Below are positions 19,661 through 41,972 of a stretch of 43,023 bases of DNA, piece by piece. Source of the DNA: Chloroflexota bacterium. Its GTDB lineage: Bacteria > Chloroflexota > Chloroflexia > Chloroflexales > Herpetosiphonaceae. A model generated the notes under the pieces. That model was not told the origin of the DNA, did not search any database, and worked only from the letters and a program-made list of their open reading frames with translations. Location of the stretch: positions 1 through 43,023 of the forward strand of contig JAIUOC010000003.1 of assembly GCA_020161265.1 (NCBI GenBank), given 5' to 3'. Position 1 is the first letter of the stretch; every line of letters starts with the position of its first letter. Position numbers and translations under genes: made by a program.

Positions 19661-19699
19661 GTTCAGTTCCTCATCCACAAAAACGCTTGCTAACAAATA

Positions 19700-20300
19700 T
19701 CTTAATTCAATCTAGCTGAAAGCGCCAAATTGCCGATTTTGTAACGGGAATTTTTAATTTATACCAAATTATGCCTAACATGTTGATGATATCAAATAGC
19801 TTTTTTTGATTGAAACTTACTGAATTGTCGCTATCGGTATGCTATAGATCTGGATATTTTATTAAAAAAATCTAAAAAATTAAGTTGCGTTAATTATTTA
19901 ACTATGTTAGCATCATGTATATATGAACAAATTTGCATGAATATAGAAGTATTCCAATGATTGTAATAAGTTTCTATTGATGCAATTTGTTAAAGCATGA
20001 ATTGATAAAAATGATTATTTCAAGCCTAGTCAGAATTTATTAAGCCTCATTCTTGGTTAAATTAACCTAAGCTTGACTCGAATTTTGATTGAATTAATCA
20101 TTCGATTGTCTAAATTTATTCATGCTGGTACTGACTTAGAAACGATGGATTGAACATTATTTCTAAGATTTAGTTCGATTTGTACTGAATAATTTATCTC
20201 GTCATTTCATTATTCCTGCTATTCAGTGCTCTCTTTTTTTAGGCATGATTTTTAATGATTGTTAAGAATTTGCCGATTAGTTTAATTGTTGTGCTGCGCC
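19700..20300. other. AT-rich (roughly 30 % GC by eye) non-coding island between divergent panC and the pectate lyase gene
   Basis: No ORF of 60 aa or more on either strand. Only 5-18-codon ATG...stop reading frames occur, and A/T tracts are abundant. The rest of the window is about 52 % GC. Confidence 0.6.
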
Positions 20301-20390
20301 ACAGCGTTGCAACGTGGTCGCTGGGGAATCGAAACATAGCTGGATGTGAGTTGTAATTGGGAGCGGTCTCAAAACCTGTCAAGCATTGTA

Positions 20391-20590
20391 GGGGTCAGGG
20401 GCTAGGATTCAGGGGTCAGTAAGTGTAGAACATAGGGATATGGCTATGGGCGCTAGGCGATCGGAATATGCTTTGAGTTTGCATAAGTTATCGATCCTGT
20501 GGACAAAAGCTTATAGTCAATTTTTCTTCGCGATCTTCGTGTGCTTCGTGGTTGCAATCATCCTGACCCCTGATCCCTGACGGCTGATCC
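20391..20590. repeat. About 200-bp imperfect palindromic repeat element immediately upstream of the pectate lyase gene
   Basis: Left arm ggggtcaggggctaggattcaggggtcag (20391-20419), then gaacatag, ggctatggg and cttcgcgatcttcgtgtgcttcgtgg modules. Right arm cctgacccctgatccctgacggctgatcc (20562-20590). Confidence 0.55.
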
Positions 20591-20610
20591 CTAAAATTAG
20601 GAGTTTACCA

Positions 20611-37006: not shown

Positions 37007-39931
37007 ATGAAATCATTTGAACATACCCAACTGGGTGAGTATACATTGCAAGAAGAGATTGGCCGTGGCGGGATGGCGCAAGTCTATCGAGCGCAGCATC
37101 AAGCCTATGGTCTGGTTGCATTCAAAGTATTACCACCCTATTTTGCCCACGATAACGATACGCTTCAGCGCTTTATGCGTGAGGCGCGGGCCAATCGCAC
37201 TTTGCACCACCCACATATTGTGCAATTGTATGAAGCCAGCGACATTGCCCAAGCCCAAAACCCCTACCAGCCGATTCACTATATCGCTATGGAATATATC
37301 GCTGGGGGTACGCTGACTGATCGCTTGCGTCAACAGCCGCAACAGCCATTAAACACGACGCTTGAAATGGGTGAGCAAATTGGCTCGGCCTTGGATTATG
37401 CCCATGGCAAGGGTTTTATTCACCGCGATATCAAGCCGAGTAATATTTTGTTTCGTAGCAACGGCCATGCTGTGCTCGCCGACTTTGGGATTGCTCTCGC
37501 CAACAATGAGGCCCGTATGACCAAGGCTGGCGGTTTTGCTGGCACGGTCGCCTATACTGCGCCTGAAATTTTCGAGGGCGAAACCGCCGATGTGCGCTCG
37601 GATATTTATGCCTTGGGCTTGATTCTGTATGAATCGTTGGCTGGGCATAACCCCTATGCCAACATCAGCACTAATGCCCAAATTGCCATGAGCAAAATTT
37701 TAACGACGCCGCTGCCACCATTGCAAGATGTTGCGCCGCATGTGCCCCCGTTAACGGCTGAAATTTTGGCTCAAGCAACCGCCAAAGATCCAATTCGACG
37801 CTTTGCCACGATGTCGGATTTTGTCGAGGCCTTGAAACAAGCTAAATTTAATCGGGTCAGCGATCGACCTGCGCAACAATTGAATGCCAGTGGTCGCCCG
37901 ATGATTCCAATTGCTGGTCGGCCTGGAGCGCCAAATCGCCCACCACCACGCAATCAGCCAAGTGGCGATAACCCAACTCAAGCCTTTGTAGCTGGGGTTG
38001 CTGCCTCATCTGCGGCAGCTGCGGCCATGCCTGAGGCTAACGAAGGCACGATGATCTACACGCCGCCGACACCAAATCCGGTGGTCAATCAACAGGCTGC
38101 GCCACCACCAAACGAGCCAACCCAAATCTACACGCCACCAACCCCGAATCCAGTGGTGCAACAACCTGCGCCAGCGGCCAAGCCGCCAGTTGATGCAACT
38201 CAAATCTACACGCCACCAACGCCGAATCCGGTGGTGCAACAACCTGCACCAGTGGCTAAACCGCCAGTTGATGCAACCCAGATTTATACGCCACCAGCGG
38301 CCAACCCACCGTTGCGTCAAGCGCCGATTACCCAGCCAAATCAACCCTTGCCGAGTGTGCAGTCCCAGCCCAACCAATCGTTGCCAGCTGCGCCGACGAT
38401 GCCGCTGGATAACCAAAGCACCATGATGTACACGCCAAATGCAAGCGTGCCCAATCAGCCAATTCCAAGCCGTACCAACCAACCAGTTGATAACGAAAGC
38501 ACCGTGATGTATCCGGCCTATCCGCCGAATCAGCCACAAGCTTATCCACCGCCAGCAACTGGTAACCAAACCTATATGCCGCCTACGGGTAATCAGGCCT
38601 ATCCACCAGCAACTGGCAATCAAACCTATCAACCTATGGCTGGGGCTTCGCAGCCAAACCAGCAACTGCCAAAAAAGGGGCCAGCGCGGCCAATTAATGC
38701 CCAACGGATTGACCTTGCGCGACCTGCGGCTCCTGTTCAAGCAGCTCAGGCAGCGGAAACTGAATATGCGCCAGCGCCACCGCCCTATGCTATGCCACCA
38801 AAAGCATCGCCAGTCGCGAGAGCCAAGGATTTCTTCCGTTCGCCAAAGGTTCTCGTGGCCTTAGGTAGTGCACTTTTAGCCTTGATTGTGATTGCATTTT
38901 TGAGCTTTGGCCAAGGCGAGGACGATCCAAATATTGCTAGTGGTGCTACGGCTACCTCAGTAGTTGCAGTTGGTGAGAGTACTCCAACGGTTGCGGCAAC
39001 CAATGCGGCCACCCCAACTGTGGCCGAAACCGCCGATCCCCAAGAGGCCAAACGCTTAGAGTATATTGTTGGGCAAGAGGCCTATGCCAAACAAGATTGG
39101 CCTAATGCAGCGGCGGCCTTCGATAAAGTGCTCGCCATCGATCCAGCCTATCTTGATTTGAGCAACATTGGCTCGGCAACTTACTACAATTGGGCGGTCA
39201 GCGAGTTGACTGGCCCCGACAACGTTGCTGAAAGCTTGGAAATTCTCAACAAAACCTTTAGTTTCAAGCCCGACCATCAACCAGGTGGTAACTTAGCCAA
39301 AGTGCTGAATGTCTATCGCAATGGCCAAACTGCCGCCGAACAACAAGATTGGCAAGCAGCGATTAATGGCTATAAAGAAGCCCAAACCGCTGGTAGCGCT
39401 GAGTTTGGCGAGCTTATGGGTAAGCTACAAACCGTCAAGCAATTGTACGAGGCCTATCTTGGACGCGGGCGAGAGCTAGAAGAGGCTGGCGATACCGCTG
39501 AGGCCAATGCGATCTATCGCGAAGCTGCCGCCCTCAAGGATCTGGACAGCAGTTTAGACGTTGCTACTGCTAACACTCGGATTGCGGCAACCCAACCAAC
39601 CGCCGTGCCAGCGACCCCAACTAAGCCAGCACCACCAACGACTGCTCCGGTAGCTCAACGCTTGTACTTCCAAAAATATGCCGAAAATGCGGTTGATCCA
39701 ACCTGTTTTGCCGTGCATATTCGTGGGGTTAACACGGGCGGCTGGTTTGTGACCGTCGATGGGCTAGGCAATCGCGGCAATGTCGATGGCGCTGGTAATA
39801 CCAATGTTTGTGGATTGTCCCCCAGCCAAGAAGTGACCTTCACGGTTTACAATGGCTCTGGGCAAGCCGTGCCAGGTGGCGGCGGCATCCCAACTCGTGG
39901 TGGCGATTTGATGACCGGCTATTGGCAATAA
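37007..39931 (+). CDS. Membrane-anchored Hanks-type Ser/Thr protein kinase with a tandem Pro-rich repeat linker and an extracytoplasmic TPR-like domain
   Basis: VAFKVL (Lys), HRDIKPSNILF, DFGIA and TAPE motifs. (TQIYTPPTPNPVVQQPAPxAKPPVDA)x3-4 repeats. TM helix VLVALGSALLALIVIAFLSF. 974 aa. Confidence 0.9.
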   Translation: MKSFEHTQLGEYTLQEEIGRGGMAQVYRAQHQAYGLVAFKVLPPYFAHDNDTLQRFMREARANRTLHHPHIVQLYEASDIAQAQNPYQPIHYIAMEYIAGGTLTDRLRQQPQQPLNTTLEMGEQIGSALDYAHGKGFIHRDIKPSNILFRSNGHAVLADFGIALANNEARMTKAGGFAGTVAYTAPEIFEGETADVRSDIYALGLILYESLAGHNPYANISTNAQIAMSKILTTPLPPLQDVAPHVPPLTAEILAQATAKDPIRRFATMSDFVEALKQAKFNRVSDRPAQQLNASGRPMIPIAGRPGAPNRPPPRNQPSGDNPTQAFVAGVAASSAAAAAMPEANEGTMIYTPPTPNPVVNQQAAPPPNEPTQIYTPPTPNPVVQQPAPAAKPPVDATQIYTPPTPNPVVQQPAPVAKPPVDATQIYTPPAANPPLRQAPITQPNQPLPSVQSQPNQSLPAAPTMPLDNQSTMMYTPNASVPNQPIPSRTNQPVDNESTVMYPAYPPNQPQAYPPPATGNQTYMPPTGNQAYPPATGNQTYQPMAGASQPNQQLPKKGPARPINAQRIDLARPAAPVQAAQAAETEYAPAPPPYAMPPKASPVARAKDFFRSPKVLVALGSALLALIVIAFLSFGQGEDDPNIASGATATSVVAVGESTPTVAATNAATPTVAETADPQEAKRLEYIVGQEAYAKQDWPNAAAAFDKVLAIDPAYLDLSNIGSATYYNWAVSELTGPDNVAESLEILNKTFSFKPDHQPGGNLAKVLNVYRNGQTAAEQQDWQAAINGYKEAQTAGSAEFGELMGKLQTVKQLYEAYLGRGRELEEAGDTAEANAIYREAAALKDLDSSLDVATANTRIAATQPTAVPATPTKPAPPTTAPVAQRLYFQKYAENAVDPTCFAVHIRGVNTGGWFVTVDGLGNRGNVDGAGNTNVCGLSPSQEVTFTVYNGSGQAVPGGGGIPTRGGDLMTGYWQ

Positions 39932-39942
39932 CTAAATCTGTT

Positions 39943-39983
39943 GCAACGAGCCGCGATCGAAAAATCGCGGCTCGTTGCTATTT
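39943..39983. terminator. Bidirectional intrinsic terminator (15-bp perfect stem) between the convergent kinase and LRV genes
   Basis: gcaacgagccgcgat (39943-39957), loop cgaaaa, atcgcggctcgttgc (39964-39978), then tattt. Confidence 0.75.
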
Positions 39984-41336
39984 AACGAGCATTCAATTGC
40001 ATTTGCGCCAAGCGTTGGACATAGCAATTGCCATCGTTGGTCAATTGTTCGAGCACGTCACTTGGGCAACTTGGGTTTTCGGCTAAAGCTGCTCGTCCTT
40101 GCCACCATGGCGAGTGAACGCCCTTCGTCAGATGCTCAATCGGTGTCGCGGGGTGACCTAACGCCAGCATATGTAGCCATGGATCGAGCGCATACAAGGC
40201 TTCGATTAATCCTCGTTGGCGGGCAAGATCAAGAATTTCAGCTGTGGCCTGCGGGTTTTGCCCAACCGTTTGGCGTATCAGCGAGGCCTGATCTTGCGCT
40301 AGCAGCTCTAGAATTTCGGGAGTTGCGGCTGGGTTGAGCGCTGCTGCTCGGCGAATTGGCACTGCCGACCACGTGTAATCACGCGCCAGCGTCAGCAGTA
40401 ATTTTGGGCTAATGTTGGGATTCCGTGCTAGCGCCGCTCGCACATGCTGCGAATCATCAAGCTCCAATAGTTGATGGACTGTGCGTGGTGTTGCTGGATT
40501 TTGGGCCACCAGTAATCGAATGCTAAGATCGTCGTCTTCAGCCAAAATTGCTAAGCCTTTAATATCATTGGAATGCGCTACTTGAGCTCGTTCGGTTAGC
40601 GGCGCTTCGAGCAATCTTGGATATGTTGGGGTAAAGTCAAGCGTTTGTGGCTCAAGCACAGGCTGTGGCATAGCTGCCGCTCGATTAAAGCGCGCTTGCT
40701 GCTGCTCGGCTGTTGATTGGCGTAGCCAGCCTAACATTGGCTGATTGATCGCATTCAAGCCGATTAATTCTTGTAACAATGTGCTTGCTGTGGCATCGGG
40801 CAAGGCCACTTGTTGTTTGTAATGCTGATAGTCGGCGTACCAATTGGCATCAAACGTAGGATTCGAAGCAACATGCAGTTGCACGGTTTGCGCAATTTCA
40901 GGGCTAATGCTTTGAATCGACGCTAAAATAACTTGGGGAATTGCCGAACAGCTTAAAAACTGCAAACAGCGCAATGGCTCCATTCGCTTAAAAAACTCAG
41001 GATCATATTGGAGCCACGTGGGCAATGCCGGATTCGCCAAAACGCAGCGGGCAGATCGGCGGCAAATTCTAAAGCGAGCATGGGCGGAAGATTGGGGTTG
41101 GCAACTAGCGCTTCGAGCAGCGGCGAGGTTCGGCGTTCTAAGATAATTGCCAGTGGGCCTTGCGGTGCTTGGCTATTGAGGTAAGCAAAACTTGTGCTAG
41201 GCTGAGCTGAATCAGCGCCTTCTTGCAGTTTAAGCCACTCAGCAAGCGCCATTAATTGTTGTGGGTCGGTTTGAGGGTTGCGGGCAAGGCTGAGCATGGC
41301 GGCTTGCTCAACTTGGTTCAGATCGAGCATGATCAT
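39982..41336 (-). pseudogene. Leucine-rich-repeat-variant (LRV) repeat protein gene, apparently split by a -1 frameshift at an A4 run (41039-41042)
   Basis: Upstream ORF (..41345) ends ...ALVANPNLPPMLALEFAADLPAAFW and then runs 28 junk codons. The downstream ORF starts at a TTG with no RBS and reads ANPALPTWLQYDPEFF... Both parts carry LRV-type xNPxxPxxxLxxLA repeats. Confidence 0.5.
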
Positions 41337-41366
41337 TCCTCTCACCCCAAAACTACTGATAGCGTG

Positions 41367-41380
41367 CTACAATCAGCGCT
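41367..41380 (+). promoter_or_regulatory. Candidate extended -10 promoter (TGcTACAAT) for the GNAT gene
   Basis: gtgctacaat at 41371-41380, 26 nt upstream of ATG 41406. The same TGnTACAAT appears at 28755-28764. Confidence 0.35.
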
Positions 41381-41405
41381 GCTTAATTACACTGGAGTAT
41401 ACCCC

Positions 41406-41972
41406 ATGTTTAGCTCAAATCGTTTGACCCTGCGGTCAGTTGGTCAAGAAGATCTGCCGATTTTTCATCAATGGTGGGGTGACCCAGAAATTATGGCCCT
41501 GCAAACCGATGGCGATATTCGGTTACGCCATGAAACCACCAATGTGATGATGTTTGACCATTGGTTTCGTGATGGTGGCAGCGATGTGGGCTTTTCGATT
41601 GAACTCAGCGAGACTGGCCAGCTAATTGGCTTTACCAATGTTTGGGGGGCGCAATTAAAAAATCGCTCAGCCGAATTGGGGATTATGCTCGATAAAGATT
41701 TTTGGAACTGTGGCTATGGCACCGAAGCAATGCATGTAATTGTGCGTTATGTTTTTGCCGAGCTGAATTTTCACCGTTTGCAATTGACTGTGCGCGATTA
41801 CAACCAACGGGCGCAGCGGGTCTATAGCAAAGTTGGCTTTCAAGTCACAGGGCGGTTGCGCCAGATCAATTTTCGCAATGGCCGCTGGCATGATGATCTG
41901 GTGATGGATTTGTTGCAGGATGAATATTTAGCTGCCCATGGAGCCTACCCGCCTAGCCCAACCATGCCCTAA
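41406..41972 (+). CDS. GNAT-family N-acetyltransferase (RimJ/RimL-like)
   Basis: IGFTNVW...LGIMLDKDFWNCGYGTEAMHVIVRYVF is an Acetyltransf_3-type motif. GGAG lies about 10 nt upstream. The track ORF is extended 50 codons. Confidence 0.8.
   Translation: MFSSNRLTLRSVGQEDLPIFHQWWGDPEIMALQTDGDIRLRHETTNVMMFDHWFRDGGSDVGFSIELSETGQLIGFTNVWGAQLKNRSAELGIMLDKDFWNCGYGTEAMHVIVRYVFAELNFHRLQLTVRDYNQRAQRVYSKVGFQVTGRLRQINFRNGRWHDDLVMDLLQDEYLAAHGAYPPSPTMP

What the first reader, a model, noticed from the sequence alone, without database searches (positions are those of the whole stretch)
39982..41345. LRV-repeat protein gene interrupted by a -1 frameshift at an A4 homopolymer
Two overlapping minus-strand ORFs both encode LRV-type (xNPxxPxxxLxxLA) repeats. 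The upstream one decays into 28 non-repeat codons before its stop. The downstream one begins at a TTG with no ribosome-binding site. Restoring one A in the run at 41039-41042 would join ...AADLPAAF to ...ANPALPTWLQ... in frame, giving a protein of about 445 aa. The candidates are sequencing error, a genuine pseudogene, or slippage-prone phase variation.
Basis: seen in the sequence. Interest (0 to 1): 0.5.

Follow-up and report, generated by a model that had tools for sequence, protein, structure and literature searches.

The report
Frameshift-broken LRV repeat gene in Herpetosiphon
A gene for a helical-repeat protein of unknown function has lost one T from a short T-run and now reads as two overlapping pieces; this is an ordinary broken gene (or, less likely, a base-calling error), not a special recoding signal.

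Summary
On the minus strand, ORF 40953-41345 and ORF 39982-41040 are the two halves of one gene. Adding one T to the T4 run (+ strand A4, 41039-41042) gives a 449-aa protein from ATG 41330. That is the same length as, and collinear with, intact single-ORF orthologues at 84-89% identity, including Herpetosiphon aurantiacus DSM 785. The junction AAF-L-ANPALP matches theirs. The two nearest relatives carry T5 (TTT TTG) here, so the lesion is a T5-to-T4 deletion.

No orthologue examined is split. There is no slippery heptamer, no downstream structure, no ribosome-binding site at TTG 41040, and the run is not conserved as a homopolymer. Programmed frameshifting and phase variation are therefore unlikely.

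I favour a genuine, recent, strain-specific inactivation. The same truncated products appear in four assembly records. No other gene in the 43-kb window looks broken. Three sibling strains have deleted the same gene. dN/dS is normal, so the lesion is young or an error; without reads a homopolymer under-call cannot be excluded (about 0.28). The finding is ordinary and of low interest.

The parts
39982..41330 (-). Whole disrupted gene: an LRV-type alpha-solenoid repeat protein, 449 aa once one T is restored (ATG 41330 to TAA 39984-39982).
   Evidence: The repaired product aligns end to end with 449-aa orthologues at 84-89% identity. H. aurantiacus DSM 785 has a 449-aa ORF at the same locus. Pfam PF01816 LRV scores 60.9 bits against a cut-off of 21.6.
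41039..41042 (-). T4 run on the coding strand (A4 on the + strand): the site of the 1-nt deletion.
   Evidence: Window reads GCGTTTTGGCG. The nearest relatives read GCGTTTTTGGCC (L027) and GCGTTTTTGTCC (L003/L022), both T5. Others read TTTCTGGCC, TTTCTAGCG or TTTTTTGCC. This is the only net -1 indel in the gene.
41040..41330 (-). N-terminal 97 codons (M1-F97), in the original frame and homologous to the orthologues.
   Evidence: Alignment A1; translation.
40953..41039 (-). Out-of-frame tail of the upstream fragment: 28 codons (WRIRHCPRGSNMILSFLSEWSHCAVCSF) plus the stop codon.
   Evidence: No counterpart in any orthologue.
39982..41040 (-). C-terminal 352 codons plus stop, in the -1 frame, corresponding to orthologue residues 98-449. 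It carries 8 of the 10 NP-type repeats.
41337..41343 (-). Shine-Dalgarno-like GAGAGGA, 7 nt upstream of ATG 41330.
   Evidence: Duplex with the anti-SD is -6.0 kcal/mol, against +0.3 for TTG 41040 and -2.2 for ATG 40983. The element is retained in strains that deleted the gene.
39943..39978 (.). Perfect 16-bp hairpin in the 50-nt spacer between the convergent LRV gene and the Ser/Thr kinase gene; a likely bidirectional terminator.
   Evidence: RNA.fold gives -31.2 kcal/mol. It partly overlaps the terminator-like site found.

Best explanation
This is one gene for a 449-aa LRV-type alpha-solenoid repeat protein in a Herpetosiphon close to H. aurantiacus. In this strain it has lost one T from an ancestral T5 run (TTT TTG became TTT TG) at codon 97/98.

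Shown: translation from the normal start (ATG 41330, good SD) now leaves the frame after Phe97, adds 28 unrelated residues and stops at 40953. The remaining 352 codons are out of frame, and the first in-frame start (TTG 41040) has no ribosome-binding site.

Inferred: the lesion is most likely a genuine, recent, strain-specific loss-of-function mutation, in a species cluster where this gene is dispensable. The expected outcome is a 125-aa truncated product and little or no C-terminal fragment, with no function retained.
For: One gene, broken at this site:
- Orthologues are single ORFs of 447-451 aa.
- The repaired junction AAFLANPALP equals that of P0003 and P0043.
- It is the only uncompensated indel in the gene.
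- The nearest relatives have T5 at the site.

The break is not at a domain boundary. In the AF2 model of orthologue P0001 (pLDDT 88, pTM 0.82), residues 91-110 have pLDDT 95-96 inside a continuous solenoid. The flexible linkers lie at 38-55 and 218-224.

Genuine rather than error:
- The exact 125-aa product with its out-of-frame tail, and the 327/333-aa fragment, are on record from four assembly records. These are the JGI 3300003765 49-kb contig, a Logan contig, NCBI MAG MCA0351800.1/MCA0351799.1 on a 580-kb contig, and a JGI 604-kb contig.
- The window holds 66 A/T runs of 5, 16 of 6 and 6 of 7, yet no other same-strand ORF pair overlaps by more than 28 nt.
- Three sibling strains with an identical neighbouring GNAT protein have deleted 428 codons of this same gene, leaving a 22-codon remnant.
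- A paralogue at 37-40% identity exists in every Herpetosiphon genome examined.
Against: - No reads could be inspected.
- A one-base contraction of a homopolymer is also the classic signature of 454, Ion Torrent, PacBio or Nanopore consensus errors.
- The four assembly records may share reads or the same culture or sample, so their independence is unproven.
- The gene carries no second lesion. Its dN/dS against relatives (0.16-0.27) equals that among intact relatives (0.16-0.23). This fits a very young mutation and an artefact equally well.
Confidence: 0.65

Rival explanations
1. Sequencing or assembly error: the organism really has T5 and an intact 449-aa gene, and the consensus under-called one T.
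For: The difference is a single base in a homopolymer. The rest of the gene is flawless and under normal purifying selection (dN/dS 0.16-0.27). The nearest relatives have T5. Contigs of 580-604 kb carrying the same allele could come from long-read data, which are prone to homopolymer deletions.
Against: T4/T5 is short for a systematic homopolymer error. The 43-kb window contains 22 A/T runs of 6 or more and shows no other split gene. The same allele was produced by four assembly records and pipelines: two JGI, one Logan, one NCBI MAG. The gene is demonstrably dispensable in sibling strains.
Confidence: 0.28
2. Programmed -1 ribosomal frameshifting or transcriptional slippage at the T-run restores a full-length protein.
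For: The downstream frame is -1, the shift lies on a T-run, and the downstream 352 codons are intact.
Against: - G TTT TGG is not an X XXY YYZ heptamer; neither tRNA-Phe on GTT nor tRNA-Trp on TTG re-pairs properly (sequence).
- The 87 nt downstream fold no better than shuffles (z = +0.40).
- T4 is far too short for polymerase slippage.
- None of the orthologues examined needs a shift, and several lack any T-run: TTTCTG, TTTCTA, TTCTTC.
Confidence: 0.03
3. Phase-variable contingency switch, or a functional split gene whose two pieces (97+28 aa and about 327-333 aa) are both made and reassemble.
For: Run length differs among strains: T4 here, T5 in L003/L027, T6 in L004/L006. A GGAG lies 12 nt upstream of TTG 40965 (-5.6 kcal/mol). 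PGAP and JGI both annotated two CDS.
Against: The T5 and T6 alleles are both in frame, differing by codon substitution (TTG to TTT) and not by length. Known contingency tracts are 7 nt or longer (general knowledge). The GGAG is simply the conserved Met-Glu-Pro coding sequence and its spacing is too long. The split falls inside a confidently predicted helix-loop of a continuous solenoid, not at a linker. No relative is split.
Confidence: 0.04

Closest known systems
Intact orthologues: the 449-aa hypothetical protein of Herpetosiphon aurantiacus DSM 785 (CP000875.1, about 4,386,647-4,387,996; locus L006) and metagenomic P0001-P0004 and P0043
   Same: Same locus, between a GNAT acetyltransferase and a Ser/Thr kinase. 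Same length, 84-91% identity, same repeats.
   Different: They are single ORFs, with TTT TTG, TTT TTT or TTT CTx at codons 97-98. The window lacks one base there.
Pfam PF01816 LRV (leucine-rich repeat variant); type structure PDB 1LRV, from Azotobacter vinelandii
   Same: Repeats of about 24-30 residues with an NPxxxP signature. PF01816 scores 60.9 bits. The predicted all-alpha solenoid has 1lrv among its top Foldseek matches (prob 1.00, TM 0.45 on the target, 21% identity).
   Different: The profile-to-sequence match to 1LRV is not significant (E 0.15). There is no conserved four-cysteine cluster like the Fe-S domain of 1LRV; only one Cys column is invariant. The protein is about twice as long. 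No member of the family has a known function.
Ordinary bacterial frameshift pseudogenes (single-base indels in short homopolymers)
   Same: A single 1-nt deletion in a T5 run, a premature stop 28 codons later, intact orthologues elsewhere, and complete deletion of the gene in sibling strains.
   Different: There is no second lesion and no rise in dN/dS, so it is very young, or not real.
Programmed -1 frameshift sites (for example dnaX, IS3-family transposases)
   Same: Two overlapping ORFs with the second in the -1 frame.
   Different: No slippery heptamer, no stimulatory structure, and no conservation of the shift.

Membership tests
LRV repeat proteins (Pfam PF01816) | Profile match above the curated gathering score | tested here: met
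   The repaired protein scores 60.9 bits and the downstream ORF 61.2 bits, against a cut-off of 21.6. The upstream ORF alone scores 16.3 bits, below the cut-off.
LRV repeat proteins (Pfam PF01816) | Alpha-helical solenoid fold like PDB 1LRV | tested here: inconclusive
   The AF2 model of orthologue P0001 is all-helical (pLDDT 88). Foldseek gives 1lrv prob 1.00 but E = 6e-3 and TM 0.26/0.45. ARM and HEAT solenoids score similarly.
LRV repeat proteins (Pfam PF01816) | N-terminal 4Fe-4S cluster domain, as in the A. vinelandii type protein (not required by Pfam) | tested here: not met
   Only one cysteine column is invariant among the 13 aligned homologues. There is no four-Cys motif.
Frameshift-disrupted gene (pseudogene) | Both fragments collinear with one intact orthologous ORF, joined by a single non-triplet indel | tested here: met
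Frameshift-disrupted gene (pseudogene) | The lesion is present in the organism's DNA (supported by reads) | not testable with these tools
   Indirect only: the same truncated products occur in four assembly records, whose independence is unknown.
Frameshift-disrupted gene (pseudogene) | Relaxed selection or further degenerative lesions | tested here: not met
   dN/dS is 0.16-0.27 for the window against 0.16-0.23 among intact relatives. There are no further stops or indels.
Programmed -1 ribosomal frameshift | Slippery heptamer X XXY YYZ at the shift site | tested here: not met
   The site reads G TTT TGG.
Programmed -1 ribosomal frameshift | Downstream stimulatory hairpin or pseudoknot | tested here: not met
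   MFE is -18.9 against a shuffle mean of -20.0, z = +0.40.
Programmed -1 ribosomal frameshift | The frameshift is conserved in orthologues | tested here: not met
   None of the orthologues examined requires a shift.
Phase-variable homopolymer (contingency) locus | A long, conserved homopolymer tract with out-of-frame length variants among near-identical strains | tested here: not met
   The tract is T4 here and T5 or T6 (both in frame) or interrupted in relatives. No second out-of-frame allele was found.

The most novel reading that the evidence does not exclude
The T-run acts as a low-frequency on/off switch, or the two fragments are both expressed and reassemble into a working solenoid. This strain would then keep conditional or partial function of a gene that its siblings either keep intact or delete outright.
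Probability: 0.04. Interest if true: 0.35.

Novelty: already known. Interest (0 to 1): 0.1.

Why it matters
It matters mainly for annotation. The two CDS that JGI and NCBI PGAP call here (125 aa plus 327/333 aa) should be one frameshifted gene or pseudogene of 449 codons.

There is a small biological point. Within one Herpetosiphon species cluster the same LRV-repeat gene is found intact, frameshifted and cleanly deleted. It is therefore dispensable and being lost repeatedly, perhaps buffered by a paralogue. It opens no larger question.

Tried and rejected
- **Metagenome scans.** A protein scan and a DNA pattern scan across the site allowing T4 or T5 both returned nothing. That collection evidently does not hold this contig, so neither scan counts for or against anything.
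- **Other assemblies carrying the frameshift allele.** P0042, P0044, P0045 and the 974-aa kinase are 'not on record'. The second, Logan contig carrying P0005 stayed hidden as a 'similar place' even with a small flank. I therefore could not establish whether the assemblies are independent.
- **Literature.** A search for the sample, contig, locus-tag and protein accessions found nothing relevant. A search on LRV found no functional studies.
- **Programmed frameshifting.** Rejected on the heptamer, the downstream structure and the lack of conservation.
- **Independent translation of the downstream ORF.** TTG 41040 has no SD and ATG 40983 a weak one. TTG 40965 has a GGAG, but 12 nt away and inside conserved coding sequence.
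- **Other features.** Rfam found nothing in the window. The promoter scan found nothing in 39700-41700.

Full report
**Observation.** The minus strand of 39982-41345 carries two overlapping ORFs. One is 40953..41345 (130 aa from GTG) and the other is 39982..41040 (352 aa from TTG). The coding strand around the overlap reads GCT GCG TTT TGG CGA ATC CGG, with the four Ts at 41042-41039, which is A4 on the + strand. After ...AADLPAAF the upstream frame gives 28 residues (WRIRHCPRGSNMILSFLSEWSHCAVCSF) and then stops. The downstream frame is -1 relative to it and begins (L)ANPALPTWLQ. Inserting one T yields a continuous ORF.

**It is one gene.**
- A search with the repaired product found 449-aa proteins at 84-89% identity covering 99% of the query (E down to 8.5e-256). 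It also found 447-450-aa proteins from Herpetosiphon giganteus, H. llansteffanensis and Herpetosiphon sp. NSE202, at 67-68% identity, and more distant homologues at 37-40% (P0011 from H. geysericola, and P0012).
- The alignment is collinear from MLDLNQ... to the C-terminus. The orthologous junction reads AAFLANPALP, AAFLSNPALP or AAFFANPALP, exactly what restoring one T gives.
- All orthologues start at the Met corresponding to ATG 41330. That codon has GAGAGGA 7 nt upstream (-6.0 kcal/mol against the anti-SD). The repaired gene is therefore 449 codons (39982-41330).
- In reference genomes the orthologue is a single 448-450-codon ORF. These are H. aurantiacus DSM 785 (89% identity), H. giganteus, H. 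llansteffanensis, H. geysericola, Herpetosiphon sp. NSE202 and a Chloroflexia MAG.
- Gene order is the same in all related contigs: ORF11_beta-like, DUF8410, a gene with no Pfam family, glycine transporter-like, GNAT acetyltransferase, LRV gene, Ser/Thr kinase.

**Where and what the lesion is.**
- Against four orthologous loci, every other gap in the gene is a paired +1/-1 alignment artefact in a divergent stretch. The only net indel is one base missing from the window at 41036-41039.
- Relatives read GCG TTT TTG GCC (L027, 95.6% DNA identity) and GCG TTT TTG TCC (L003/L022, 94.1%). Others read TTT CTG GCC, TTT CTA GCG, TTT TTT GCC (including H. aurantiacus) or TTC TTC.
- The most parsimonious event is therefore T5 to T4.

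**The protein.** Pfam LRV (PF01816) is matched at 60.9 bits against a cut-off of 21.6. The downstream ORF alone gives 61.2 bits. The upstream ORF alone gives only 16.3 bits (E 0.013), although its NPxxxP motifs are visible. An AlphaFold2 model of orthologue P0001, built from a 28-sequence alignment, is confident (pLDDT 88, pTM 0.82) and entirely helical. The frameshift position (residues 97/98) falls in the 91-110 block, at pLDDT 95-96, inside a continuous solenoid. The low-confidence linkers are at 38-55 and 218-224. The break therefore does not coincide with a domain boundary. Foldseek finds only generic alpha-solenoids (importin-alpha, the PP2A A subunit) together with 1LRV (prob 1.00, TM 0.45 on the target, E 6e-3). 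A sequence-profile search of the PDB is not significant (1LRV E 0.15). The function of the family is unknown and I found no functional literature.

**Recoding and phase variation.**
- G TTT TGG is not an X XXY YYZ slippery heptamer.
- The 87 nt downstream fold no better than shuffled sequence (z = +0.40).
- T4 is too short for transcriptional slippage.
- No orthologue needs a shift, and several have no T-run at all.
- TTG 41040 has no SD (+0.3 kcal/mol) and ATG 40983 only a weak one. TTG 40965 has a GGAG 12 nt upstream, but that GGAG is just the conserved Met-Glu-Pro codons.
- The T5 and T6 alleles are both in frame; they differ by substitution, not by length.

I rate these readings together at under 10%.

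**Genuine mutation or sequencing error.** The window is identical to JGI metagenome 3300003765 contig Ga0056911_1000151 (49,358 bp).

Points for a genuine mutation:
- The exact 125-aa product, including its out-of-frame tail, and the 327/333-aa fragment are also recorded from a Logan contig, from NCBI MAG proteins MCA0351800.1 and MCA0351799.1 (580-kb contig), and from a JGI contig of 604,596 bp. That makes four assembly records from three pipelines, though I could not establish that the reads are independent.
- The window contains 66 A/T runs of length 5, 16 of length 6 and 6 of length 7. Even so, no other same-strand ORF pair overlaps by more than 28 nt. The assembly is not generally prone to homopolymer errors.
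- The identical GNAT neighbour protein occurs on 13 contigs. On three of them, from several sequencing runs (L018, L019, L023), window positions 40044-41327 (1,284 bp, 428 codons) are cleanly absent. What remains is the SD, the ATG and a 22-codon remnant, MMTNDGNFYVQRLAQTQLNLVK*. The gene is therefore dispensable in this species cluster and has been lost independently.
- Every Herpetosiphon genome examined also carries a paralogue at 37-40% identity.

Points for an error:
- The gene has no second lesion.
- Its dN/dS against relatives (0.16-0.27) is the same as among intact relatives (0.16-0.23).
- A one-base homopolymer contraction is the typical consensus error of several sequencing platforms.

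My estimate is 0.65 for a genuine recent pseudogene, 0.28 for an error, and about 0.07 for anything functional.

**Verdict.** The feature is an ordinary frameshift-disrupted gene. Its practical consequence is an annotation fix: one pseudogene rather than two CDS. Its only mildly interesting aspect is that the gene exists as intact, frameshifted and deleted alleles among closely related strains.

Noticed in passing
L018:2511-2925, L019 (same coordinates), L023:648-1062, compared with window 39633-41330: Three sibling strains have deleted 428 codons of the LRV gene in frame. They come from Logan runs SRR33465458, SRR10827587 and SRR33465446, and their GNAT neighbour protein is identical to the window's. 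What remains is the SD, the ATG and the last roughly 20 codons. They also carry an extra 759-aa Ser/Thr kinase paralogue, 51-57% identical to the window's 974-aa kinase, between the orthologous kinase and the remnant.
   Followed up: partly
window 39943-39978: A perfect 16-bp stem hairpin (-31.2 kcal/mol) fills the 50-nt spacer between the convergent LRV gene and the kinase gene. It looks like a bidirectional terminator. The stem is kept, with some base changes, in the deletion strains.
   Followed up: partly
window about 40917-40952 (protein residues about 126-140): A hypervariable stretch lies inside the otherwise conserved LRV gene: LQFLSCSAIPQVILASIQS here against LQLLRHHDIPSSILERIQT in the nearest relative. 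The window's version resembles the H. aurantiacus DSM 785 type, which suggests mosaicism or recombination among strains.
   Followed up: no
window 19697-20610: A 915-nt stretch has no ORF longer than 59 aa. It lies between the pantoate-beta-alanine ligase gene and a secreted protein gene whose sequence looks, by eye only, like a CBM2 domain plus a pectate lyase (not tested). There is no Rfam match. It could be a long regulatory leader or a decayed gene.
   Followed up: no
window 37007-39931: The 974-aa Ser/Thr kinase contains a long Pro/Gln-rich region with near-perfect repeats (TQIYTPPTPNPVVQQPAP...) between the kinase domain and a C-terminal domain. The paralogue in L018 lacks most of this region.
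   Followed up: no
L011-L014, L016, L017 (Herpetosiphon genomes): Each Herpetosiphon genome examined carries a second, paralogous LRV-repeat gene (37-40% identity, about 450-460 aa) at another locus. It could buffer loss of the gene studied here.
   Followed up: no
window 40953-41330 and 39982-40983: Public annotations (JGI, NCBI PGAP) call two ordinary CDS here rather than a frameshifted pseudogene, and they disagree on the start of the downstream piece: ATG 40983 (333 aa) against TTG 40965 (327 aa).
   Followed up: yes
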